DNA of 37,825 nucleotides, from the NCBI RefSeq assembly GCF_004010195.1, contig NC_057719.1, forward strand, positions 47,477,501 to 47,515,325. The letters run 5' to 3'. The notes below the pieces were generated by a model, which was given only the letters and a program-made list of their open reading frames with translations, did no database searches and had not been told where the DNA came from. The stretch comes from Chiloscyllium plagiosum (Eukaryota). Positions 3,495-37,556 of this stretch are shown here, piece after piece; the first letter of the stretch is position 1; the number at the start of each line of letters is the position of its first letter. The position numbers and the translations under genes were made by a program.

Positions 3495-3738
3495 GGGAGA
3501 AAGTGAGGACTGCAGATGCTGGAGGTCAGAGTCGAAGAGTGTGGTGCTGGAAAAGCACAGCAGGTCAGGCAGTATCAGAGGAGCAGGAGAATTAATGTTT
3601 CAGGCATAAGCCCTTCATCAGCCAATATTCCAACCACCCTGTCAACATGACTGTTTTGATCCTTAGGAAAGCCTATCCACCGGCCTGCTCCTCGGATGCT
3701 GCCTGACCTGTCCTCTTCCAGCACCACTCTCAACTTAC
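3495..3738. mobile_element. Short fold-back PLE-terminus element (family B) nested in the family A element
   Basis: Arms ~3533-3590 and ~3684-3735 are inverted copies; flanked by cacatt (3489-3494 / 3739-3744); same sequence family as 12711, 17237, 22397, 27198. Confidence 0.75.
3590..3621 (-). ncRNA. Minimal hammerhead ribozyme motif, family B (degenerate)
   Basis: Reverse complement CTGATGA-A-GGGC-TTAT-GCCT-GAAAC-AT-T; core boxes present, stem I 5' strand lost and stem III mismatched. Confidence 0.55.
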
Positions 3739-5504: not shown

Positions 5505-6835
5505 TCCATAAGACACAGGAGCAGAAATCAGACTTTTTTGGCCCATCATGTCTGCTTTGCCATTCAATCATGGCTGACGGGTTTTGCAATCCCATTTTCT
5601 GGCTTCCTCCCCCTTGGCAAGCAAGAACTTATCTATTGCTGTTTTAAATATACCTGATGACCTGGCCTCCACAGCCTCCTGTGGCAACGAATTCCACAGA
5701 TTAACCATTCTCTGGCTAACGAAGTTTCTCCTTATCTCCATTCGAAAAGGTCTTCCCTCTACTTTAAGGCTGTGCCCTCTGGTCCTAGTCTCTCCTACCA
5801 ATGGAAACATCTTCCCAACGTCCACTCTGTCCAGGCCATTCCACATTTTGTAAGTTTCAATCAGATGCCCCCTTATCCTTCTAAATTCAGAATATAGTTC
5901 GAGTCCTAAAATTTTCCTCATGTTAAGCCTTTCATTCCTGGGATCATTCTCGTGAACCTCCTCTGGACCCGCTCCAGGGCCAATACATCTTTCCTGAAGT
6001 ATGGAGCCCAAAATTGCTCTCAATACTCTGAAGCTCTGGTCAGACCACATTTAGAAGTACATCCCTGCTTTCATATTCTAGTCCACTTGAGATGAATGAC
6101 AACACTGTATTTGCCTTCCTAACTACTGACTCAACCTGCAAGTAAACCTTGAGTCCTACTCCAGGTTTCTCCTTTTTGCACTTCTGAATTTTCTCTCCAT
6201 TTAGAAAATAGTCCATGCCTCTATTCTTATCAAAATCCATGATCTGTCACTTTCCCATGTTGTATTTCATCTGCTGCTGCTTTGTCCACACTCCTAACCT
6301 GGTTAAATCTTTCTGCAGCCTGCCTTCCTCCTCAATACTAACTGCCCCTCCCCCTATCTTTGTACTATCTGCAAACTTAGCCAGGATGCCTTCAGTTCCT
6401 TCATCCAGATTATTTATGTATAAAGTGAAAAGCTGTGGTCCCAACACTGAACCTTGTGGAACACCACTAGTCACCAGCTTCCATCCTGAGAAGAACCCTT
6501 AATCTTCAGTCCATGCTAGTACCTGGCCTCTAACACCATGGGTCCATATCTTACTCTGACGTCACTTGTGCAGCACCTAATCAAAGGCTTCTGGAAGTCC
6601 GGATAACATCCATTGGCTCTCCTTGGTCTAACTTGCTTGTTATCACCTCCAAAGAATTCTAACAGACTTGTCAGGCATGATCTCCCCATCCTGACTTTGC
6701 CCCATTTTACCATACATTTAAAAGTATTCAAAAATCTCATTCTTCGCAGTGGACTCCCAAAATCTTACCAATAATGAGGTCGGACTAATCGGCCTATAAT
6801 TTCCTAACTTTTGCCTTGCTCCCCTCTTAAACAGG
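5505..6835 (-). mobile_element. 5'-truncated CR1 LINE (RT to 3' UTR)
   Basis: Minus ORFs: NYRPISPTS, GRSCLTSLLEFF, VTSGVPQGSVLGPQLFTLYINNLD, KFADSTK, TRGHSLK..RNF..QRMVNLWNSLP; 3' end near 5505. Confidence 0.92.
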
Positions 6836-8160: not shown

Positions 8161-9112
8161 CCCTCTTTGCTGTCCACTACACCTCCAATTTTGGTGTAAT
8201 CTGCAAACTTACTAACTGTACCTCTTACGCTCGCATCCAAATCGTTTATGTAAATGACCAAAAAGTAAAGGACCCAGCACCGATCCTTGTGGCACTCCAC
8301 TGGTCACAGGCCTCCAGTCTGAATGAACAAACCCCCCACCACCCTCTGTCGTCTTCCTTTTGAGCCAGTTCTGCATCCAAATGGCTAGTTCTCCCTTTAT
8401 TCCATGAGATCTAACCTTGCTAATCAGTCTACCACGGGGAACCTTATCGAATGCCTTGCAGAAGTCTATATAGATTCATCTACTGCTCTGCCCTCATCAA
8501 TTTTCTTTGTTACTTCTTCAAAAAAACGCAATCAAGTTTGTGAGACATGATTTCCCATGCACAAAACCTTGTTGACTATCCCTAATCAGTCCTTCCTTTC
8601 CAAGTACATGTACATCCTGTCCCTCAGGATTCCCTCCAACAACTTGCCCACCACCGAGGTCAGGCTCACTGGTCTATAGTTCCCTGGCATGTCTTTACCG
8701 CCCTTCTTAAACAGTGGCACTACGTTTGCCAACCTCCAGTCTTCCGGCACCTCACCTGTGACTATCGATGATACAAATATCTCAGCAAGAGGCCCAGCAA
8801 TCACTTCTCTAGCTTCCCACAGGGTTCTCGGATACACCTGATCAGGTCCTGGGGATTTATCCACCTTTAACCATTTCAAGACATCCAGCAGTTCCTCCTC
8901 TGTAATCTGGACATTTTGCATGATGTCACATGTATTTCCCTATGGTCTATATCTTCCATATCCTTTTCCACAGTAAATACTGATGCAACATATTCATTTA
9001 GTATCTTCCCCCATTTTCTGTGGCTCCACACAAAGGCCACCTTGCTGATCTTTGAGGGGCCCTATTCTCTCCCTAGTTACCATTTTGTCCTTAATATATT
9101 TGTAAATCCTTT
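8155..9112 (-). mobile_element. CR1 LINE internal ORF2 fragment
   Basis: ORF 8586-8921: KSPGPDQVYPRTLWE..VPEDWRLANVVPLFKKG..NYRPVSLTSVVGKLLEGI; continues into the VTSGVPQGSVLGP region. Confidence 0.92.
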
Positions 9113-9367
9113 CTAGAGAAAGGATAAGAACTAAATATTATTGGTCTGCATTTTTAAAATTAGTTTTTACAGGGAAAATTATTTTATGTAAAGTATTTGT
9201 GAATATTTATGCTTTTGTATTTCAATCTAAACGCTCTGATTTGTATCTTTGTTGAATAAATCTTGTTTTAATATAAATCAATTATTCTTTATTTAAGAAA
9301 TCTGAATTGGATTTTATAAGAATCCTAATATTAAAGTATATGTTAGCCATATCAGTACTTGGGTTAA

Positions 9368-9450
9368 GCCTGTTGGACTATAACCTGGTGTTGTGTGACC
9401 TTCAACTTTGTACGCCCCAGTCCAATACTGGCATCTCCAAATCATGACTA
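9368..9450 (+). mobile_element. PLE family C 3' terminus fragment
   Basis: cctgttggactataacctggtgttgtg..cccagtccaa shared with 19580-20021, 20064, 29940, 32515. Confidence 0.7.
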
Positions 9451-12420: not shown

Positions 12421-12707
12421 ATTGGCTTCAACCTTTTTATTCTGAAATGAAAAAGAATGAGTCCTATCCAGTTATCTCTCTAATCATGTACAGTGTCTCT
12501 TATTAATGAAAGAAATGGAAATGGCCACAAGGGGGTGATCTGTGCTTTTTGTCTTGCAAATGATGGCTATGCAAATTACTTTTGTCATATTTGCTTCTTC
12601 TAAGCTTCAATTGTGATATAAAAAATAAATTGCATTTTGGGTGGCCAACTTAATGACACGGTTTCTTTTTGGAGTTTGTGCATCACTCCATATTACCCCC
12701 TCATATT

Positions 12708-12743
12708 ATTCCTGAAGAAGGGCCTGTGCCCGAAATGTCGAAT
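12708..12743 (+). ncRNA. Minimal (PLE-type, type I) hammerhead ribozyme motif, core intact
   Basis: ATTC[stem I]-CTGAAGA-A-GGGC-CTGT-GCCC[stem II]-GAAA-TG-TC-GAAT[stem I']; predicted cleavage after C12739; loopless stem III. Confidence 0.7.
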
Positions 12744-12836
12744 CTCCTGTTCCCTGGATGCTGCCTGACCTGCTGTGCTGTTCCAGCAATAAAGTTTCAA
12801 CTTTGATCTCCAGCATCTGCAGACCTCACTTTCTCC
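12711..12836 (+). mobile_element. ~126-bp PLE family B terminus insertion with target-site duplication
   Basis: Flanked by the direct repeat cccctcatattatt (12697-12710 / 12835-12848); begins with a hammerhead motif and ends with cagcatctgcagacctcactttctcc. Confidence 0.85.
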
Positions 12837-13884
12837 CCTCATATTATTGCCTATTTGAGCTATCTGAAGCTTCAGTTTAAAATATGGTCTCAACGTTTTG
12901 GAATCAGTAAGCAGGCATCAGCCCTTCTAATTGAGATGAGGAATTGAACTAAATCTGTTTTACTACTCTGAAAACACAATCAATTCAACAGAGCATTCAG
13001 TGATAACTCTACAAAGTATTTTTTAATGAAAATTCTACCCTAACAACTAGTTATTTTTGTTTCAATTTGTAGACCTGTTCGTACCTTATGTGGAGAATTA
13101 TATTTGGGAATCTAGAAATTTCAATTCTGTATTCAAGAGCAATATCTGGTAAAACAAATTATTTTGGGATTATAGTCTTATACTTGGGTAGTGATTAGTT
13201 ACGACTGCATATTTGACCGTCATGGGTAACTGATCAAAGGGTAACAACTTACTTTTGGGCCAATTCACAGGCAACACCGGTTTCTTTTCTGGAATCAGAT
13301 TTTGGAGAGAGATCAAGATCAGGGACAAGTATTTAGCTACTCTTCTGGATATTGCAAGCAGCCTGATGAAAAGCCAAAGTTGGATACCTAAAAGTGATTT
13401 AGGCAAATCCTTTTCAGCCATGCTTTGGGTTCAGACTCTGTTGACAAGATGGTTTTGATGTTCCCTTGTTGGAAGCCACTAAGGTTTATAATAGATAATA
13501 GTGGAGTCATTTCAGCCACGTTGAACCATATTGAGTTTCGGAACACATACTGTGTTCAGAATTGACTGAAGTAGACATCTAACCTCCAAGGTTTGGTCAT
13601 CTGGAATATTCATGATACCAAGACTGCCAAAAGGTGCTGCATTTGTTTTTTGTTTGATGTTTCTGGAAGCAGTCACCATCCTCCTTCTGTGTTCTATGGT
13701 AACCATTTTAAAACAGTCAGTTTAAGAAAAGTTCTGGGAAACAAACTGCCCCTGACTTCTGGAAATTACAGATCTGTAACTTAAAGATATCTACATTAAT
13801 TCTATGCTTGTAATCTGTCTCAATTGGCTTTTCATTAAGATAAGCTTTGAATTATTGTAATTCTGCTTTGCTATGGATACAGAT

Positions 13885-14540
13885 CTCCTAGTAGTTGTCA
13901 GGATGTGGGGTTGAAAATTAAATCAGGAGATATAAAAGGTATGTAAGAAAGACACTATTACAATAATCATGGGGGATCTTCCGTATTAGGTGAACAGGGA
14001 AAATTGGGTTCAGTCCCAATCGAAGGATTTCATTGGATGTCTGAGATGGTGTTTTTATTTCTTTCTTGATTGATTCATTGGTCAGTCCATCCATGGAATA
14101 ACCAATTTTGGATTGGATGTGTCGTGAGACAGACTTGATTAAGACCTGACAGTGAAGGAACCCTAGAGGGGAGAGGTCCTAATATGGATTGAATTCACTC
14201 TGCAATTTGAGAGGAAGAAGCTTGATACCGATGTCATTAGAATTGAGTAAATGAAACTAAAGACATGGAAGAGTTGGCCAGAGCTGATTAGACGGGGAAC
14301 CCAGCCGGGAAGACAGTTGAGCAGCAATGGCAGGAGTTTATGGGGATAATTTAGGAGACATAGCAGAAATTCAGAAGAAGAAACATGCTAAGGGGAGGGC
14401 TAGGCAACCATTGCTGAGTAGATAAATCTGAACATAAAAGCAAAAGAAACAAACATACAATGTGGTGAAGGTTAGTGGGAAGCCATTAAAAATCAGGAGA
14501 AGCCAAAGAAAAAGGTATTTGGTGGTTGGGGGGGCAGAAA
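13885..14540 (+). mobile_element. Old CR1 endonuclease-region fragment
   Basis: TITIIMGD.., ILDW..C, VKEPL.G..PNM.EFTLQFE, TVEQQWQEFMG, typical of the CR1 ORF2 N-terminal half. Confidence 0.7.
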
Positions 14541-14556
14541 TAAAGAATTGCCTGTA

Positions 14557-14665
14557 GCAAGTAATATTTGTGCCACTCAAATGACAGGCAATAACCATCT
14601 CCAATAAGAGACCATATATTCACTGCCTCTTGACATTCAGTAGTGCTCCCATCACTGAACCCATC
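14557..14665 (+). mobile_element. Short LINE RT fragment (CR1/L2 group, different family)
   Basis: QVIFVPLK*QAITISNKR resembles the post-RT W-x-x-x-F-x-x-x-K-C-Q-A-M-T-I motif. Confidence 0.5.
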
Positions 14666-15009
14666 AGTCTGGCCTCGACTGCTTGTCTAACAACAATTCC
14701 ACTATGCCAGTGTTCCCAGCAGAATAATCAATAACTTATTTAAGCTTCAATTCTGTGTAATTTCAAGTTATTGTTCAGTGAACCTTAGGATAGTGGTTCT
14801 TCAGTGGAGATCCACCAAAATTAACCAGATAATGTGTAGACAAAAATATATTAACTGCTTTCTACCTGGAAAAAATGCCTATAGCTGTTTGAATCTGTTT
14901 ACAAATCTCCATGAGATCACTATATTCTGGAAGTGATTCACTCTCTGAATAATTTGAAACATTTTGAATATGTCGAATGGTGGTTAATTCTTCTCTGCTA
15001 TTATCAGAC

Positions 15010-15170
15010 TTTGATTGGATCTCTCAAATGTTAATTCTGATCTCTCTCTGGCTGTAACACTATATTCTGCACTTTATTCAGCTACCCTCATGCACTTTCT
15101 ATGGTACGATCTGCCTGTCGAGCATGCAATAAAACATTTCATATGTGACAACAATAAATCAGTCAATCAA
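15010..15170 (+). mobile_element. Probable LINE 3' UTR fragment (Rex1/Babar-like)
   Basis: Ends in gtgacaacaataaatcagtcaatcaa, a short-repeat tail; family assignment from memory only. Confidence 0.35.
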
Positions 15171-15818
15171 GTTAAGGGGCCTTATGTGTCAACATGAGAT
15201 CAAATAAACTGAATCAGGCATGAGCACTCCACTGTGGAGATGAGTACCAGTGAGGCATTCAGCCATCTGAAGTTGTTTCTTCATGGCATTAAATAGTACA
15301 AATACTTTGAAGTAATATGTGAACATTTTTTTATTAATGTTTTAATTGACATGCAAATTTTTCTAATAGGTTTTTGATTTTGTATTGTTGCTCATTACTA
15401 GCAACAAGTTTTCCTTTACAGCAAAAGTAATAACTATATCTTTAATTATAAAATTTAATTCTTATACAAAGGTTTGTGCTTTGGAGTTTTTGGTGGCAAT
15501 CTTTGTAATGAGGGAGTGGGGTCTCAGAAGCAAAATATTGAGAACTGTCACCTTTAGAAGTGAACTTTTAATCCTCATCCAACTTAAACATTATCAAACC
15601 AGTGCACAGCACTTTATGCATACTTGTAATACTTAACAACAGGATGGAGAAGTTATCTTTAATAAAAAGACACATTATTGAATACTGAGTTAGAATTCAC
15701 ATCATCCAACCACTAATCAACATCACCAGAAATAAAACTTAAGCTTTGATCATTTAAGTGCTTTTTAAGTGAACCAGAACCAAAAAAATTAATGTTTCTA
15801 TGTTTTCACATTTTGCAG

Positions 15819-16334
15819 CATTCATTAACCAATGGCATCAAGAATCCAAGGACAAGGTGGTGATGCTTTTGCTGACCCATCTCCCATTATTGAAGCCAGG
15901 AAATATTGAGGCAAAAATAGAATACATGAAGCTTTTACCTAAGATCCTGGCTCATTCAATTGAGAACAATCAGCATATAGAGGAAAGCAGACAACTCTTA
16001 TCCTATGCTTTGATCCATCCAGCCACCTCATTGGAGGACAGAAATGCACTAGCCATGTGGCTCAACCATTTAGAGGACCGCACCTCTAACTATGGAAACC
16101 AGACCAGAGGACGTCCAGATTCGATGGATTTTGGGCAAACTCTTTATTATCACCAAAGACAGAACTCTGATGACAAGCTCAATGGTTGGCAGAGTCTACG
16201 TGATTCTGGGATCTGTGTGTCTGCTTCTAACTGGCCAGATAAGAACCAGGCTTGTGAAAATGGACATTTGCCACTTTATTCTTCTACATCTGTACCTACA
16301 ACAATTAACACTATTGGAACTAGCACAACCACAA
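15819..16334 (+). CDS. SAMD4A: Internal coding exon of SAMD4A (Smaug homolog 1), equivalent to mammalian exon 3
   Basis: Translates (x)[128 protein letters not shown], very close to vertebrate SAMD4A and more like A than B. Acceptor ttttcacattttgcAG (15817-18), donor GTAAGT (16335-40); 516 nt, phase 1-1. Confidence 0.97.
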
Positions 16335-16899
16335 GTAAGTATAAAATGCTGTTGTTTTTAAACATTTTGTAGTTTAACGTTTTACAGGCTTTTGAGAAAA
16401 TATATTCTAGAACTTTTAAAGGCAAAAGCTCTGTTTTAGGTAAATGTGGAATGTTGCTGAAGATTTTCATCTTGCACTTGTCAGGAAAATTTGCAGGAAT
16501 ACCAATGTAAGGGGGAAGCAACACTTTTACTATATAAAGTGAGAATGCAGATTGGTTGGCAAAACTACTCTGGTAGAAACGTTGCTAAAAAAAATATGCT
16601 AGTTAATAACTCTTAGCTGCCAAGCTTTGTTTAAATTTTAAAATTGGGTAGGTTGACTGTGGCTAAGGCATTGCCTTGAGAAATCAACCAGTGGCTTCCA
16701 CCATTTTGTTTTTATTTTTGAGTTGAAACAGGCAACTAGTATATACAAGTTTGTTCCATCTGCAAAGAACAGCATCTTGTATGTTAATATATGTAGCCCC
16801 CATACATTTTTGGCATGATTGCAGTATTTTTTGGGGGTGAACTACTCATCTGCATAGTAGTAGTGTGACATGGCTTGCATCAACTGTTGCTCAAATTTT

Positions 16900-17236
16900 G
16901 AAGATCCCTTACTCTTCAGAGTAATGAGTTAGCTAGTTCAACTCTCTTTCACGCTGTCACCATGCAGCACCAACACAGTTGGTGTTCACTGACAGGATGA
17001 CACCATCAAGCCCAAGGGCATTCTGAGCTCTTCACAAACTAATCCTGTAGTTTATGAATTTCAATGCTGGTGTGATGCCTGGTTAAACGCCCATATCCCA
17101 TAAATAAATTGAATGACTTATCCCTTTTGGCTGCTCACAGCAAGCAATGTACTGATTATGCCTAATCTATCTGACATTTGCAAAACCCACAATACACAAT
17201 ATCTGATGTGAGATGTGATGTTGCGATTAGTCAAAA
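16900..17236 (+). mobile_element. Old PLE GIY-YIG fragment (different family), resumes at ~18476-18560
   Basis: VVYEFQCWCDAW at 17048-17083 (GIY-YIG first strand), RCDVAISQ at 17210-17233, and HLLDNPV after the insertion at 18480. Confidence 0.6.
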
Positions 17237-18475
17237 ATTGTGGTGCTGGAAAAGCACAGCAGGTCCGTCAACATCCAAGGAACAGGAGAGTTGATGTTTA
17301 GGGCATCAGCCCTTCAGGGATGTGGGGGGTTTCCAAGGAGGCTGAGAGAGAACTGAGGTGGGGTTGTGGTTGCAGGGGGGTAGAAGACCAGGGAAAATTG
17401 AATATTTGAGAAGACAACTGCCAAGCCACCAGCATGTAAAAGGACTGCCTGAAAAATAGCTCTCTTAAAAAGGTACGTGTATCAATCAGTAACATGTGAA
17501 GCAGAATCCCCAAGAAGATTCTGAATCCCCAATATAAGGAGAAGGTAGATTGGAAGGTGATAGGTAGATGAAGATGGAGGGGGTGATGGGTTGGAGTGGG
17601 GGATGGAGCAAATAGGTGGGAAGGAAGGTGGACAGGTAGGACTGTTCAAGAGGGCAGTGAAGTAGACATTGATGCTGTGTACTTGGTGGGTCTCAAGGCG
17701 GGAGATGAGGCGTTCTTCTAGGCTTTGGGTGGCTTAGGATTTGATGGTGGAGGTGGCCCCGGACTTTGCATGTCCTTGGCAGAATGGGAGGGGGAGCTGA
17801 AGTGGTCTTCCACAGGGCAGTGGCATTGTTGGATGTGTCCCCCTGGAGATATTCTCTGAACTGTTCTGTAAGTTTGGCATCCTGTCTCCCCAACATAGAG
17901 GAGACCACATTTGAGAGCAACGGATATAGTAGGTGAGTTGTTTGGATGTGCAGGAAAATCTCTGGATGTGGAAGGATCTCTTGGGACCTTGGATGGAGGT
18001 GAAGGGGAGATATGAGCACAGGTTTTATACTTCTTGCAGTGGCAAGGGAAGGTGCCAGGAGTGGAGGGTAGGTTGGTGGGGGTGTGTGGCCCTAACGAGG
18101 GAATGGCGGAGGAAATGGTCTCTGCAGAATGCTGATCGTGTGGGGAGGGAAATTATATCTGTTTTGGTGGGATCAGACTGTTGGTGGCAAAAATGACGGA
18201 GGATGATATGTTGTATCCTGAAGTTGGTGAGGTGGAAGATGAGGACCAGGGCATTCTATCCTTGCAGTTGGAGGGACGGGATTCAAGGTGCAGGAACTGG
18301 CGGAGATGCATTGGAGGGTATTGTTGACCATGTGGATGGGGAAATTGCAGTCCTTGAAGTTGGAGGCCATCTGGGATGTTCTGGAGTGGAATTGCTCCTT
18401 CTGGATGGAGATGCAGCAGTGGTGGAGGAATTGGGAGTAAGGGATAACATTTTTACAGAAGTAGGACGGAGGGTG
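17237..18475 (-). mobile_element. Penelope-like element remnant (family B)
   Basis: Minus ORFs: HPPSYFCKNVIPYSQFL..EQFHSRTSQMASNFKD.NFP (PLE RT thumb) and KLTEQFREYL / LEERLISRL (GIY-YIG); family B terminus with decayed hammerhead at 17240-17320. Confidence 0.85.
17379..17516. repeat. ~140-bp dispersed repeat, inverted copy of 27826-27964
   Basis: Reverse complement aligns base by base; the ORF track gives near-identical peptides (MGILLH.LLIDT.TF.RELFF.QSFYMLVAWQLSSQ) at both sites. Confidence 0.9.
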
Positions 18476-18835
18476 CAAACATTTGCTGGATAATCCAGTG
18501 TATGAACAGTTGCACTCGCAATCAGTTTAGGATTATAAACCATTCAATGATTCGCCTTTCAGACAACCTCTTGACTGTTTAGTATTAACTACTTGGTTTT
18601 AAAATATAAGTAAAGCTTGGAATTAGTTGTCAGTCATCATTAACATCTCTACAATCCAAATCCTCTTATCTATCAATCAGCATTTTCCCTTCATAAAGGA
18701 TGTTGGTTTCCTCTTTCATTGGTTTTCTTGTAAATTGTCCTAATGAGTGCAAGATGAAAAACTTTAACAAACTGCTTTTTTTTTCAGGAATACTTCAGTT
18801 CTGTGCTACCAATTGACTAAGTTAACCACTTCAGA

Positions 18836-18970
18836 AATTCTGAAGAAGAGACATACTGGACTCAGTGTCAACTCTGTTTCTCTCCACATATGCTGCCAAG
18901 CCCACTGAGTTTTGACAGCAATTTGTTTGGTTTAGATTTCCAGCATCTACAGTATTTTGTTTTTATTTGA
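18836..18970 (+). mobile_element. PLE terminus fragment (family A-like) with decayed hammerhead
   Basis: ttCTGAAGAaGAGACatactgGACTC..gtcaactctgtttctctccac..atgctgcc..ttccagcatctacagtattttg. Confidence 0.65.
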
Positions 18971-19577: not shown

Positions 19578-20021
19578 ATGTTGGACTGGGATGAACAAAG
19601 TCAGAAATCGCATGACCCCAGCTATAGTCCAACAGGTTTATTTCAAATCACAGGCTTTCAGAGCATAGCCCCTTTGGGTGAAGTGAGAGGGAAGTACACA
19701 AAACACCCCAAAGTATGGGCAGAGAGATCAAAAGATCATACAAATGGTGTGAGTGGAGTGTTGAATAATAAGTCTCTGCAGGTGACCAAAGGTGTTAGTA
19801 TGAGTAAAATTTCAATAACTGAATAACAACCAAAGGGATAACCAATAATCCAAATAAATGGTGCCTCCGTTCACACCATTTGCATGATGTTTTGATCTCT
19901 CTCCCCATAAACTGTTGTATGTGCTCCCCTCTCACTTCACCTGACAAAGAGGCTATGCTCTGAAAGCTAGTGCTTCCAAATAAACCTGTTGGTATATAAC
20001 TGGTGTCGTGTCATTTTCTGA
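19578..20021. mobile_element. Fold-back PLE family C mini-element
   Basis: Arms ~19599-19758 and ~19865-20021 are inverted repeats; hammerhead-like motif CAC-CTGACAA-..-GAAA-GC-TA-GTG at 19938-19972. Confidence 0.8.
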
Positions 20022-20059
20022 CAAGATTTATGGAGCAACTTCCTTCAAAGATAATGAGT

Positions 20060-20150
20060 TAAAAAATCACAACACCAAGGTATAATCCAACAGGTTTATT
20101 TGGGAGCACTAGCTTTGGAACACTGCTCCTTCATCAGGTGGTTGTGGAGT
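20060..20150 (-). mobile_element. PLE family C terminus with hammerhead motif
   Basis: Reverse complement CAC-CTGATGA-A-GGAGC-AGT-GTTCC-AAAG-CTA-GTG (20107-20140); G of GAAA missing. Confidence 0.75.
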
Positions 20151-22396: not shown

Positions 22397-22590
22397 TAGG
22401 AGAAAGTGAGGACAGATGTTGGAGATTAGAGTAGAGAGTGTGTTGCTGGGAAAGCACAACAGGTCAGGCAGCATCCGAAGAGCAGGAGAATTGACGTTTC
22501 GGGCATAAGCCTGATGAAGGGCTGATGAAACGTTGACTCTCCTGCTCTTCAGATGCTGCCTGACCTATTGTGCTTCCCAGCAACACAACG
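22397..22590. mobile_element. Fold-back PLE family B mini-element with TSD
   Basis: ~60-bp inverted arms 22439-22500 / 22527-22587; centre made of two truncated head-to-head hammerhead motifs; flanked by aaaacctgc (22388-96 / 22591-99). Confidence 0.85.
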
Positions 22591-22687: not shown

Positions 22688-24272
22688 ATAAGACCATAAG
22701 ACATAGGAGTGGAAGTTAGGCCATTCGGCCCATAGAGTCCACTCCGCCATTCGATCATGGCTGATGGGCATTTCAACTCCACTTTCCCACATTCTCCCCA
22801 TAGCCCTTAATTCCTTGTGACATCAAGAATTTATCAATCTCTGCCTTGAAGACATTTAGCGTCCCGGTCTCCACGACACTCTGCGGCAATGAATTGCACA
22901 GACCCACCACTCTCTTGCTGAAGAAATGTCTCCGCATTTGTTCTGAATTTACCCCCTCTAATTCTAAGGCTGTGTCCACAGGTCCTAGTCTCCTCGCCTA
23001 ATGGAAACCATTTCCTAGCGTTCACCCTTTCCAAGCCATGTATTATCTTTTAAGTTTCTATTAGATCTCCCCTTAATCTGCTAAACTCCAATGAATACAA
23101 TCCCAGGATCCTCAGCCGTTCCTCATGTTAGACCTACCATTCCAGGGATCATCCGTGTGAATCTCCGCTGGACATGCTCCAGTGCCAGTATGTCCTTCCT
23201 AAGGTGTGGGGACCAAAACTGGACACAGTACTCCAAATGGGGCCTAACCAGAGCTTTATAAAGTCTCAATAGCACAACGGTGCTTGTATATTCCAACCCT
23301 CTTGAGATAAATGACAACATTGCATTCGCTTTCTTAATCACTGACTCGACCTGCATGTTTACCTTTAGAGAATCCTCGACTAGCACTCCCAGATCCCTTT
23401 GTACTTTGGCTTTATGAATTTTCTCACCGTTTAGAAAGTAGTCCATGCTTGTACTTTTTTTTTCCCCCAAAGTGCAAGACCTCGCAATTGCTCACATTGA
23501 ATTCCATCAGCCATTTCCTGGACCACTCTCCCAAACTGTCTAGATCCTTCTGCAGCCTCCCCACTTCCTCAGTGCTACCTGCCTGTCCACCTAACTTCGT
23601 ATCATCGGCAAACTTCGCTAGAATGCCCCCAGTTCCTTCATCCAGACCATTAATATATAAAGTGAACAGCTGCGGTTCCAACACTGAACCCTGCGGGACA
23701 CCGCTTGTCACCGGCTGCCATTCTGAAAAAGAACCTTTTATCCCAACTCTCTGCCTTCTGTCAGACAGCCAATTCTCAATCCATACCAGTAGCTCACCTC
23801 GAACACCATGGGCCCTCACCTTGCTCGCCAGCCTCCCGTGTGGCATCTTGTCAAAGGCCTTTTGGAAGTCTAGATAGACCACATCCCCTGGGTTTCCCTG
23901 GTCTAACCTACTTGTCACCTCTTCAAAGAATTCCAACAGGTTTGTCAGGCACGACCTCCCCTTACTAAATCCATGTTGACTTGTTCTAATCCGACCCTGC
24001 TCTTCCAAGAATTTAGAAACCTCATTCTTAATAATGGATTCTAGAATTTTGCCAACAACTGAGGTTAGGCTAATTGGCCTATAATTTTCCATCTTTTGTC
24101 TTGATCCTTTCTTGAACAAGGGGGTTACAACAGCGATCTGCCAATCATCTGACTCCAGTGACTTTTGAAAGATTTCAATCAACACCTCCGCTATTTCCTC
24201 AGCCACCTCACTCGGAACTCTAGGATGTAGCCCATTGGGGCCAGGAGATTTGTCAATTTTAAGACCTGTTAG
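22688..24272 (-). mobile_element. Relatively young 5'-truncated CR1 LINE (RT domain to 3' tail)
   Basis: 260-aa ORF 23424-24206 with NYRPISLTS, QHGF..GRSCLTNLLEFF, YLDFQKAFD, GVPQGSVL, FADDTK; frameshift at the T-run 23454-23463; tail ataagaccataagacatagg. Confidence 0.96.
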
Positions 24273-24754: not shown

Positions 24755-24976
24755 GAGTACAAAAACAGACATTGCTGGAAAAGCTCAGCAGGTCTGGCAG
24801 CATCTGTGAAGAGAAATCAAAGTTATGTTTTGGATCTGGTGACCCTTCCTCAGAGCCTGGACCCAAAGCGCTAACTCAGATTTCTCCTCTCTGATGCTGG
24901 CAGACCAGCTGAGCTTTTCCAGCAACATCTGTTTTTGTTTGTGAATTACAGCACCTGTCGTTCTTTCACTTTTTAC
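24755..24976. mobile_element. Fold-back PLE family A mini-element with TSD
   Basis: Inverted arms ~24760-24835 / ~24860-24938 match the 2340 and 3940 termini; flanked by atactat (24747-53 / 24977-83). Confidence 0.82.
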
Positions 24977-27197: not shown

Positions 27198-27273
27198 AGG
27201 AGAAAGTGAGGTCTGCAGATGCTGGAGATCAGAGCTGAAAATGTGTTGCTGTAAAGCGCAGCAGGTCAGGTAG
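27198..27273 (-). mobile_element. PLE family B terminus running into an assembly gap
   Basis: gaggagaaagtgaggtctgcagatgctggagatcagag..gcagcaggtcagg is the reverse complement of 12765-12836. Confidence 0.8.
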
Positions 27274-27773
27274 NNNNNNNNNNNNNNNNNNNNNNNNNNN
27301 NNNNNNNNNNNNNNNNNNNNNNNNNNNNNNNNNNNNNNNNNNNNNNNNNNNNNNNNNNNNNNNNNNNNNNNNNNNNNNNNNNNNNNNNNNNNNNNNNNNN
27401 NNNNNNNNNNNNNNNNNNNNNNNNNNNNNNNNNNNNNNNNNNNNNNNNNNNNNNNNNNNNNNNNNNNNNNNNNNNNNNNNNNNNNNNNNNNNNNNNNNNN
27501 NNNNNNNNNNNNNNNNNNNNNNNNNNNNNNNNNNNNNNNNNNNNNNNNNNNNNNNNNNNNNNNNNNNNNNNNNNNNNNNNNNNNNNNNNNNNNNNNNNNN
27601 NNNNNNNNNNNNNNNNNNNNNNNNNNNNNNNNNNNNNNNNNNNNNNNNNNNNNNNNNNNNNNNNNNNNNNNNNNNNNNNNNNNNNNNNNNNNNNNNNNNN
27701 NNNNNNNNNNNNNNNNNNNNNNNNNNNNNNNNNNNNNNNNNNNNNNNNNNNNNNNNNNNNNNNNNNNNNNNNN
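27274..27773. other. Assembly gap (500 N)
   Basis: N run. Confidence 1.
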
Positions 27774-27825: not shown

Positions 27826-27964
27826 TTCTTGGGGATTCTGCTTCACAGGTTACTGATTGATACAGGTACTTTTTCAAGAGAGCTATTTTTCGGGCAGTCC
27901 TTTTACATGCTGGTGGCTTGGCAGTTGTCCTCTCAACTATTCACTTTTTCCTGGTCTTCTTACC
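27826..27964. repeat. ~140-bp dispersed repeat, inverted copy of 17379-17516
   Basis: Direct alignment by eye. Confidence 0.9.
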
Positions 27965-36989: not shown

Positions 36990-37300
36990 AAAGAATCATG
37001 GAATCTCTATCTGTGCAAAGAGGTCATTCAGCCCATCGAATCTATACCAACCATCAGAGCCTCCCACCCAATTCCCACAACCCCACATTTACATGGCCAA
37101 TCTACATGATTTACACATCCTTGGGAGCTACAGAGCAATTGAACATGGCCAATCCACCTTACTTGGACGTCTTTGGAGACTGGAACACCTAGTACAAACC
37201 CACACATTGGAGGAACGTACAAACTCCACACAAACGTGCACATAAGGCTGGAATTGAATTTAATTCCCTGATGCTGAGGCAACACTAAGCCACTGTGGAC
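36990..37300 (-). mobile_element. HE1/V-SINE-like tRNA-derived SINE
   Basis: Reverse complement has cacagtggcttagtgttgcctcagc head, tgtgtggagtttgtacgttcctcc and aggtggattggccatg V-domain-like blocks, and a CR1-type tail. Confidence 0.75.
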
Positions 37301-37556
37301 CTGTTGTGCTGATTGGAGACTCTAGTTAGAAGGAGCAATCTTCTGTCCAGGTTTATACATGATGAATTTAATCTGGAGAGTTAAAGGTTTAGATGGAGAG
37401 GAATTAGTGTGTACAAGACAATGCCACTGTGGACCTGTTGTGCTGATTGGAGACTCTAGTTAGAAGGAGCAATCTTCTGTCCAGGTTTATACATGATGAA
37501 TTTAATCTGGAGAGTTAAAGGTTTAGATGGAGAGGAATTAGTGTGTACAAGACAAT
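37289..37556. repeat. Perfect 134-bp tandem duplication
   Basis: 37289-37422 is identical to 37423-37556. Confidence 0.95.

What the first reader, a model, noticed from the sequence alone, without database searches (positions are those of the whole stretch)
12717..17315. Candidate shark circSAMD4A: lone exon bracketed by inverted Penelope/hammerhead termini
Seen: one 516-nt exon between very long introns. Inverted family B repeats lie at 12717-12788 and 17244-17315 (about 59/72 identical by hand alignment), ~3 kb upstream and ~0.9 kb downstream. A second inverted pair of family C lies at 9368-9430 versus 19580-19637 and 20064-20093. Known, from recollection: the orthologous mammalian exon 3 yields the circular RNA circSAMD4A/circSamd4, and inverted intronic repeats promote back-splicing. 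Inference: circularisation of this exon may be conserved to chondrichthyans, with PLE termini playing the role Alus play in primates.
Basis: partly seen in the sequence, partly recalled or inferred. Interest (0 to 1): 0.8.

Follow-up and report, generated by a model that had tools for sequence, protein, structure and literature searches.

The report
Shark SAMD4A exon amid Penelope repeats
This is the shark counterpart of the SAMD4A exon that forms a circular RNA in mammals, flanked by two opposite-facing ends of a very common jumping gene; the shark exon likely circularises too (untested), but this repeat pair is probably a recent coincidence rather than a conserved cause.

Summary
A 516-nt SAMD4A exon (15819-16334) lies between introns of about 84 and 24 kb, bracketed by an inverted repeat pair that is 59/72 identical. 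The repeats are Penelope-like element (PLE) ends with a minimal hammerhead motif.

The family occurs about once per 5 kb. Of 54 control loci, 16 have an equal or better inverted pair within ±4.7 kb, and 6 one as tight. The upstream arm is a very young insertion (perfect 14-nt target duplication; all 39 other loci scored are 100% identical), so the pair cannot be an old conserved device. It ranks 20th of 24 cross-intron matches, though it is the nearest. One paper reports no complementary sequences within 5 kb of human circSAMD4, which weakens the Alu analogy.

No RNA evidence was obtained either way. A circle is plausible (about 0.7): it is reported in mammals and a teleost. Against that, it is absent from a newt list and classed 'non conserved' in a primate list. 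The scan noted these PLE ends earlier elsewhere in this genome. At best a new member of a known kind; low interest.

The parts
15819..16334 (+). SAMD4A (Smaug homolog 1) second coding exon, orthologue of human exon 3. 516 nt, phase 1-1, 172 codons; read as a ring it has no stop in the coding frame.
12711..12836 (+). Upstream arm: solo 126-nt PLE end (family B), sense to the pre-mRNA, from a very young subfamily
12708..12743 (+). Minimal hammerhead-like motif in the upstream arm: helix I 12708-12711/12740-12743, CUGANGA box 12712-12718, helix II 12720-12731, GAAA 12732-12735. 12736 is T where the family majority has C.
   Evidence: fold of 12700-12760 gives helices I and II; Rfam no hit
12697..12710 (+). 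Left copy of a perfect 14-nt target-site duplication; right copy at 12835-12848
17229..17322 (-). Downstream arm: old family-B end with a broken hammerhead core, closing a decayed PLE
   Evidence: best other copy in the sampled DNA 88.6% identical
17323..18480 (-). Decayed 5'-truncated PLE body with frameshifted linker and GIY-YIG fragments (frame piece 17718-18152); far end approximate
3495..3621 (-). Family-B copy in the same upstream intron; best-scoring partner of the upstream arm (127 nt, 81%, -194 kcal/mol)
22399..22587 (.). Head-to-head family-B pair in the downstream intron; its minus copy pairs with the upstream arm better than the named partner does (116 nt, 100 bits)
9363..9432 (+). 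Family C end fragment (second hammerhead-type family), upstream arm of the weak second pair
19581..20140 (.). Three family C copies (19581-19680 minus, 19941-20020 plus, 20061-20140 minus); the first two can pair locally
16454..18770 (.). Inverted pair of another repeat (16454-16554 and 18674-18770, 76%, -97 kcal/mol) that encloses the downstream arm within the downstream intron

Best explanation
This is the SAMD4A exon orthologous to mammalian circSAMD4A, set between 84-kb and 24-kb introns full of Penelope-type repeat ends; it is likely back-spliced at some level because the long introns would delay linear splicing, and the named repeat pair is likely an incidental, recent arrangement that would add little. 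Shown: exon identity, intron lengths, repeat identity and abundance, the youth of the upstream arm, and the competing partners. Inferred: back-splicing by the long-intron route (slow downstream splicing, helped by RNA-binding proteins and by many interchangeable repeat pairs). Also inferred: the hammerheads are inert passengers (single copies, one base off the family majority upstream, broken core downstream).
For: Orthology: the first 93 residues are 100% identical to a protein named Chiloscyllium plagiosum Smaug homolog 1 and 86-92% identical to tetrapod Smaug 1; the genome's one paralogue is 62% identical. Human circSAMD4A is exon 3, 519 nt (PMC9893680; PMC12594570), and the mouse junction shRNA quoted there runs into the same first codons as the shark exon. 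Circles are reported in human, mouse and rat (PMC6909180) and in miiuy croaker (review PMC9941745; exon not stated in the passages seen). Conserved circRNAs are mostly of the long-intron, distal-Alu class (69-72%; PMC7819710) and have long downstream introns (PMC8516421). Human circSAMD4 reportedly lacks complementary sequence within 5 kb and is regulated by SRSF3. Pair incidental: 117 family-B copies in 577 kb of control DNA and 56 in 333 kb around the gene; 16 of 54 controls have as good a pair; the paralogous exon has a better one within 5 kb (79.7 bits); the pair ranks 20th of 24 cross-intron matches of 60 bits or more; the upstream arm is 100% identical over 125-126 nt at all 39 other loci among the 40 candidates scored of 978. 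A single minimal hammerhead from a Schistosoma PLE showed no detectable cleavage (PMC4209133).
Against: There is no junction read or contig for the shark circle (laid nothing), so the existence of the circle is inference. A newt catalogue of 9,799 circRNAs has no row named SMAG1 or SAMD4, only one multi-exon SMAG2 circle (PMC11872487 Table S7; depends on gene naming). A primate study classes the 519-nt human circle as 'Non Conserved' by its criteria (PMC8516421 supplement). In favour of the pair: it is the nearest cross-exon match and the only one within ±4.74 kb; 0 of the 8 other internal SAMD4A exons have one of 60 bits or more within 5 kb; the duplex is stable on its own (-109.6 kcal/mol) and forms in the minimum-energy fold of 12600-17450. 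Young transposons are the usual pairing partners at mammalian circRNA loci (PMC8516420).
Confidence: 0.55

Rival explanations
1. The named pair drives or clearly boosts back-splicing. The young upstream PLE end pairs with the older downstream end as soon as it is transcribed, loops out 4.4 kb and brings donor and acceptor together. This would be a recent, lineage-specific gain or boost (convergent, as described for mammals), not a device conserved from early jawed vertebrates.
For: Nearest cross-exon match, and none of 60 bits or more at 8 other internal exons. A pair this tight occurs in only 6 of 54 (any repeat) or 3 of 54 (family B) control loci. The helix is present in the fold of 12600-17450, with 92 upstream-arm bases paired to the downstream arm. 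Young species-specific transposons flank shared mammalian circRNA loci (PMC8516420), and repeat-associated circRNAs are reported in newt (PMC11872487).
Against: The arms are only 82% identical over 72 nt. The upstream arm has stronger partners, including one transcribed earlier in the same intron (-194 against -110 kcal/mol). The helix disappears from the minimum-energy fold when 1.45 kb more intron is included (12600-18900). The downstream arm lies inside another inverted pair, and its PLE body has a 93% partner in the same intron.
Confidence: 0.15
2. The shark exon is not back-spliced to any meaningful extent. It is an ordinary constitutive exon in a repeat-rich intron, and the mammalian and teleost circles arose separately.
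For: Few circRNAs are shared across mammals and many appear convergent (PMC8516420). No SMAG1 or SAMD4 row in the newt list; 'Non Conserved' in the primate list. The one shark circRNA paper found does not mention SAMD4 or Smaug in its main text, but it prints only about ten of its 4,558 circles. Within-intron inverted matches of 60 bits or more (45 upstream, 5 downstream) outnumber cross-intron ones (24).
Against: Same exon, phase and long-intron layout as in mammals (human downstream intron about 34 kb from coordinates, shark 24 kb). A circSamd4a is reported in a teleost. Back-splicing is shown to occur in this shark species (PMC7759564).
Confidence: 0.3

Closest known systems
circSAMD4A / circSamd4 (hsa_circ_0004846, mmu_circRNA_005305; also rat and miiuy croaker circSamd4a)
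   Same: Orthologous single exon, same acceptor position and phase, 172 against 173 codons, long flanking introns.
   Different: No junction evidence in shark. The human circle reportedly has no complementary intronic sequence within 5 kb, whereas the shark exon has one 72-nt pair.
Inverted-repeat-driven exon circularisation (Alu pairs; young-transposon dimers of Gruhl et al. 2021, PMC8516420; hAT/LTR/nMITE pairs in newt, PMC11872487)
   Same: Opposite-strand copies of an abundant transposon family in the two flanking introns, one of them very young.
   Different: The family here is a PLE end of about 125 nt rather than a SINE or DNA transposon. The paired stretch is short (72 nt, 82%), and no enrichment over background or dependence was shown.
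[not shown]
   Same: Very long flanking introns; an early coding exon conserved between human and mouse.
   Different: A proximal inverted pair does exist in shark; SFPQ/NONO binding is unknown.
Minimal hammerheads in pLTRs of endonuclease-bearing PLEs (Cervera and De la Pena 2014, PMC4209133; clade features in Craig et al. 2021, PMC8557442)
   Same: CUGANGA and GAAA boxes, short helix I, helix II, palindromic 15.2-16.2; mostly solo copies; position 3' of an RT/GIY-YIG frame with a Cys linker (Neptune-like).
   Different: Neither arm has the full majority core. Here they matter only as complementary sequence; cleavage was not tested.

Membership tests
circSAMD4A orthologue | Host exon orthologous to human SAMD4A exon 3 | tested here: met
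   best hits are Smaug homolog 1; the paralogue is 62% identical; same position after the first coding exon
circSAMD4A orthologue | Same boundaries and phase as the mammalian circle | tested here: met
   516 against 519 nt; 171 against 172 residues between landmarks; the mouse junction shRNA enters the same first codons
circSAMD4A orthologue | Back-splice junction present in RNA | tested here: inconclusive
   laid 0 contigs in 4 of 4 runs, which the tool says can be a filter effect; one search found no tail-to-head protein among 26 short hits
circSAMD4A orthologue | RNase R resistance; absence from genomic DNA PCR | not testable with these tools
   Bench test
Inverted-repeat-driven circRNA (Alu-like) | Reverse-complementary repeats in both flanking introns | tested here: met
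Inverted-repeat-driven circRNA (Alu-like) | Pair stronger or closer than background | tested here: inconclusive
   16 of 54 controls as strong, 6 of 54 as tight; family B alone 10 and 3 of 54; 0 of 8 sibling exons
Inverted-repeat-driven circRNA (Alu-like) | Cross-exon pairing preferred over within-intron pairing | tested here: not met
   Upstream arm's best partner is in its own intron (118 against 72.5 bits); the helix is present in one fold and absent in the longer one
Inverted-repeat-driven circRNA (Alu-like) | Circle level depends on the repeats | not testable with these tools
   Needs a minigene or an allele comparison
Conserved cis-element for back-splicing | Both arms old enough to be shared across chondrichthyans | tested here: not met
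   Upstream arm 100% identical at 39 other loci, perfect target duplication; presence in other sharks not checked directly
[not shown]
   84,036 and 23,639 nt
[not shown]
   One 72-nt pair spanning 4.6 kb
[not shown]
   Needs CLIP or knock-down
Endonuclease-bearing PLE (Neptune-like) | RT followed by C-terminal GIY-YIG | tested here: met
   Window fragment matches P0133 (E 2e-14), which has RVT_1 (E 9e-5, below cut-off) and GIY-YIG (E 9e-5, above cut-off). Genome copies show both motif sets by eye. Pfam gave no hit at E 0.1 on the window fragments or on 8 of 8 genome frames.
Endonuclease-bearing PLE (Neptune-like) | CX2-5CxxC linker and CCHH motif | tested here: met
   Read by eye in L118, L119, L121, L123, L124 against the description in PMC8557442; degenerate in the window copy
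Endonuclease-bearing PLE (Neptune-like) | Family B is the repeat 3' of the ORF | tested here: met
   17 of 21 other loci carry family B downstream of the GIY-YIG match in the same orientation (counted)
Endonuclease-bearing PLE (Neptune-like) | Clade placement by RT phylogeny | not tested
   No tree was built
Minimal type I hammerhead | Core boxes, helices I and II, palindromic 15.2-16.2 at family level | tested here: met
   Majority sequences of families B (116 copies), C (40) and D (31) keep both boxes with different helix II sequences; 26 of 116 B copies have the full core; Rfam found nothing at E 1
Minimal type I hammerhead | Intact core in the two arms | tested here: not met
   Upstream arm differs from the majority at 15.2 (shared with its 39 identical copies); downstream arm lacks three bases of the first box and differs in the second
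Minimal type I hammerhead | Self-cleavage (as a dimer) | not testable with these tools
   Bench test; both arms are single copies

The most novel reading that the evidence does not exclude
Hammerhead-tipped Penelope ends, at roughly 700,000 copies, are the shark's Alu equivalent for back-splicing. At SAMD4A a brand-new 126-nt insertion switched on or boosted a 516-nt circle whose coding frame has no stop, giving a natural presence/absence experiment on an ancient circRNA locus.
Probability: 0.12. Interest if true: 0.5.

Novelty: new member of a known kind. Interest (0 to 1): 0.22.

Why it matters
A confirmed shark circle would extend circSAMD4A from mammals and a teleost to all jawed vertebrates, a modest step in the debate on whether shared circRNAs are inherited or convergent. 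If PLE ends proved to be the main pairing elements in sharks, a retroelement class not linked to back-splicing in the searches made here (listings only) would join Alu, B1/B2, ID and hAT elements. The very young upstream insertion makes that easy to test. As it stands the window shows a known circRNA exon in a repeat-dense intron, which a specialist would expect.

Tried and rejected
RNA evidence. One search listed 18 runs holding the exon, none on record as RNA ('no RNA holder listed'), plus 2 raw-read poly(A) single-cell runs that I did not lay. laid 4 of the 18 contig runs on the acceptor side of the exon and returned 0 contigs in all 4; the tool says this can be a filter effect, so it is no evidence either way. 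The donor side of the exon and the two repeat arms were never laid. One search searched short proteins with the tail-to-head region of a turtle gene model: 26 hits. None of those whose sequences I read joins the exon's end to its start. This is uninformative, because a stop-free ring may yield no called gene (inference).

Family libraries. Rfam found nothing in the window at E 1. Pfam missed the decayed PLE frames at E 0.1. The exon peptide alone had no Pfam hit.

Literature. The shark circRNA paper's only held supplement gave 294 characters of text, so its full list could not be seen and may settle the question. The supplements of PMC8516420 (26,479 characters searched) had no SAMD4 hit. Two primary papers (circSamd4 in myogenesis; croaker circSamd4a) are not held.

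Rejected ideas. (1) A conserved repeat device: the upstream arm is too young. (2) Family C as a second clamp: weak, with local partners. (3) Ribozyme-made circle or ribozyme-assisted back-splicing: single, non-majority or broken cores, and the downstream one is antisense. (4) QKI-type motifs: 2 in about 3.5 kb against 0.49 per kb in controls, no enrichment. (5) Checking the repeats in other sharks: no related genome is held.
Full report
Exon and gene. The window holds one SAMD4A coding exon at 15819-16334 (516 nt), preceded by a pyrimidine tract and AG and followed by GTAAGT. Its first 93 residues are 100% identical to a protein named Chiloscyllium plagiosum Smaug homolog 1, 95-99% identical to other chondrichthyan Smaug 1 entries and 84-92% to other vertebrate entries (best 120 of 842 hits shown). 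The genome has one paralogue at 62%. Mapping full-length proteins onto 358 kb of contiguous genome placed the previous coding exon about 84 kb upstream and the next 23.6 kb downstream. Human circSAMD4A is exon 3, 519 nt (PMC9893680, passages; PMC12594570, passages). The mouse junction shRNA quoted in the latter enters the same first codons as the shark exon, so the acceptor is orthologous. The exon is phase 1-1; read as a ring, the coding frame has 0 stops in two turns, against 18 and 26 in the other frames. One paper scored rat circSamd4a as of low coding potential by a database (PMC6909180, passages).

Repeats. The named pair is exact: 59 of 72 identical, with 4 of the 13 mismatches able to form G-U pairs, and a duplex of -109.6 kcal/mol. 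Family B is the 3' end of a Penelope-like element. In 17 of 21 other loci picked for similarity to the window's decayed frame, it follows the GIY-YIG-like region in the same orientation (counted). The window fragment matches a whale-shark protein (E 2e-14) that carries weak RVT_1 and GIY-YIG hits. The Cys linker and CCHH motifs, read by eye, point to a Neptune-like element (PMC8557442, passages); no tree was made. The majority sequences of families B, C and D all keep the two hammerhead boxes around different helix II sequences, matching the minimal hammerheads of PLE ends (PMC4209133, abstract, results and discussion). Rfam found nothing. Of 116 B copies, 26 have the full core. The upstream arm differs from the majority at one core base and the downstream arm is broken. 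That paper reports no cleavage by a single minimal motif, so ribozyme activity here is unlikely (inference).

Age. The upstream arm is a solo 126-nt insertion with a perfect 14-nt target duplication. All 40 candidates scored, of 978, were 100% identical over 125-126 nt: the window copy and 39 others. The family as a whole averages 83% identity to its majority. The downstream arm's best other match in about 0.9 Mb sampled is 88.6%. The pair therefore exists only since a very recent insertion. I could not check other sharks directly, and I give no absolute date.

Background. Family B occurs 117 times in 577 kb from 60 control loci (0.2 per kb, about 7 x 10^5 copies if extrapolated) and 56 times in 333 kb around the gene. 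The control loci were taken at round coordinates on 34 large contigs and were not restricted to introns; 6 of 60 were dropped for gaps. Within ±4.74 kb of a mock exon, 16 of 54 have an inverted match of at least the pair's 72.5 bits, and 6 of 54 one spanning 4.6 kb or less. For family B alone the counts are 10 and 3 of 54. In tiles across the gene region (6 of 35 dropped), 11 of 29 reach the score and 3 the tightness; one of these in each count is the pair itself. The paralogous exon has a 79.7-bit match within 5 kb. In the pair's favour, none of the 8 other internal SAMD4A exons has a match of 60 bits within 5 kb, though several of their introns are shorter than that.

Competition. Across the two full introns there are 24 cross-exon matches of 60 bits or more. 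The named pair is the nearest but ranks 20th; 45 more lie within the upstream intron and 5 within the downstream one. The upstream arm scores better with 3495-3621 in its own intron (-194 kcal/mol), with 22399-22511 and with 27199-27273. The downstream arm lies inside another inverted pair (16454-18770). Minimum-energy folds disagree: the helix forms in 12600-17450 and is absent in 12600-18900. Folds of this length are rough. The family C pairs are about 40 bits each and have closer local partners.

RNA evidence. None was obtained. Eighteen runs hold the exon but none is on record as RNA; laying four of them returned no contigs, which the tool marks as possibly a filter effect. A protein-database route was uninformative. 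Back-splicing does occur in this species: 4,558 liver circRNAs (PMC7759564, parts 1-2 of 4 read and the whole text term-searched). SAMD4 is not mentioned there, and the full list was not visible.

Comparison with the literature. For conservation: circles in human, mouse and rat and in miiuy croaker (review PMC9941745, passages; primary paper not held). Against: no SMAG1 or SAMD4 row in the newt list (PMC11872487, passages and Table S7 search), and 'Non Conserved' for the 519-nt human circle in a primate list (PMC8516421, passages and supplement rows; the gene id linking that row to SAMD4A is recalled). On mechanism, PMC12594570 states that no complementary sequences lie within 5 kb of human circSAMD4 and points to SRSF3; this is one group's statement, which I could not check. 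Conserved circles are mostly of the long-intron, distal-Alu class (PMC7819710, passages). Shared mammalian loci are flanked by young, species-specific transposons, read as convergence (PMC8516420, passages); this leaves room for the young arm to boost the circle, but not for a conserved device. PMC6155905 and bioRxiv 10.64898/2026.07.22.740005 were seen as passages. The search listings for shark circRNA, PLE hammerheads and PLE with back-splicing showed no title on a shark circSAMD4A or on PLE-driven back-splicing; most subscription papers are not searched.

Verdict. Most likely (0.55) the exon is back-spliced at some level through the long-intron route and the pair is incidental. The pair may be a recent driver or booster (0.15), or there may be no meaningful circle (0.3). 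Earlier notes of this scan describe the same hammerhead-tipped PLE ends as very abundant elsewhere in this genome, in agreement with my counts; none concerns back-splicing. Novelty: at best a new member of a known kind. Interest 0.22.

Noticed in passing
window 12711-12836 and L125-L134: The upstream arm belongs to a PLE-end subfamily with at least 40 identical copies genome-wide, several with adjacent inverted partial copies; it looks currently or very recently active and may be polymorphic.
   Followed up: partly
P0001 (turtle) and P0002 (sturgeon, Smaug 2-like): Two database gene models carry this exon twice in tandem. These may be assembly or annotation artefacts or real tandem exon duplications; they are not evidence of circles.
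   Followed up: partly
next exon, about 2.1 kb beyond the window end (window-relative 39974-40237): A 264-nt exon present in about 706-aa and absent from about 619-aa chondrichthyan Smaug 1 models: cassette skipping just downstream of the candidate circle exon.
   Followed up: partly
L024, near 590-815 (window-relative about 48414-48639): A head-to-head pair of young family-B copies, with a full minimal-hammerhead core on the sense strand of a later SAMD4A intron; 2 sense and 3 antisense full cores in 162 kb of the gene.
   Followed up: no
window 17382-17516 and 27826-27960: A 135-nt, 93% inverted match between the PLE's 3' region and a stretch just after a 500-N gap (27274-27773); a recent copy or an assembly effect.
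   Followed up: no
window 22399-22587 and 24759-24938: Palindromic head-to-head PLE ends of families B and D.
   Followed up: no
window 23123-24272, 5568-6764, 8212-8939: Decayed LINE-like fragments on the minus strand; 23424-24272 hits RVT_1 at E 1.8e-27.
   Followed up: no
window 37280-37547: Tandem duplication of 134 nt at 98% identity.
   Followed up: no
window 15712 and 17038: One ACUAAY (QKI-type, motif recalled) site on each side of the exon; not above background.
   Followed up: yes
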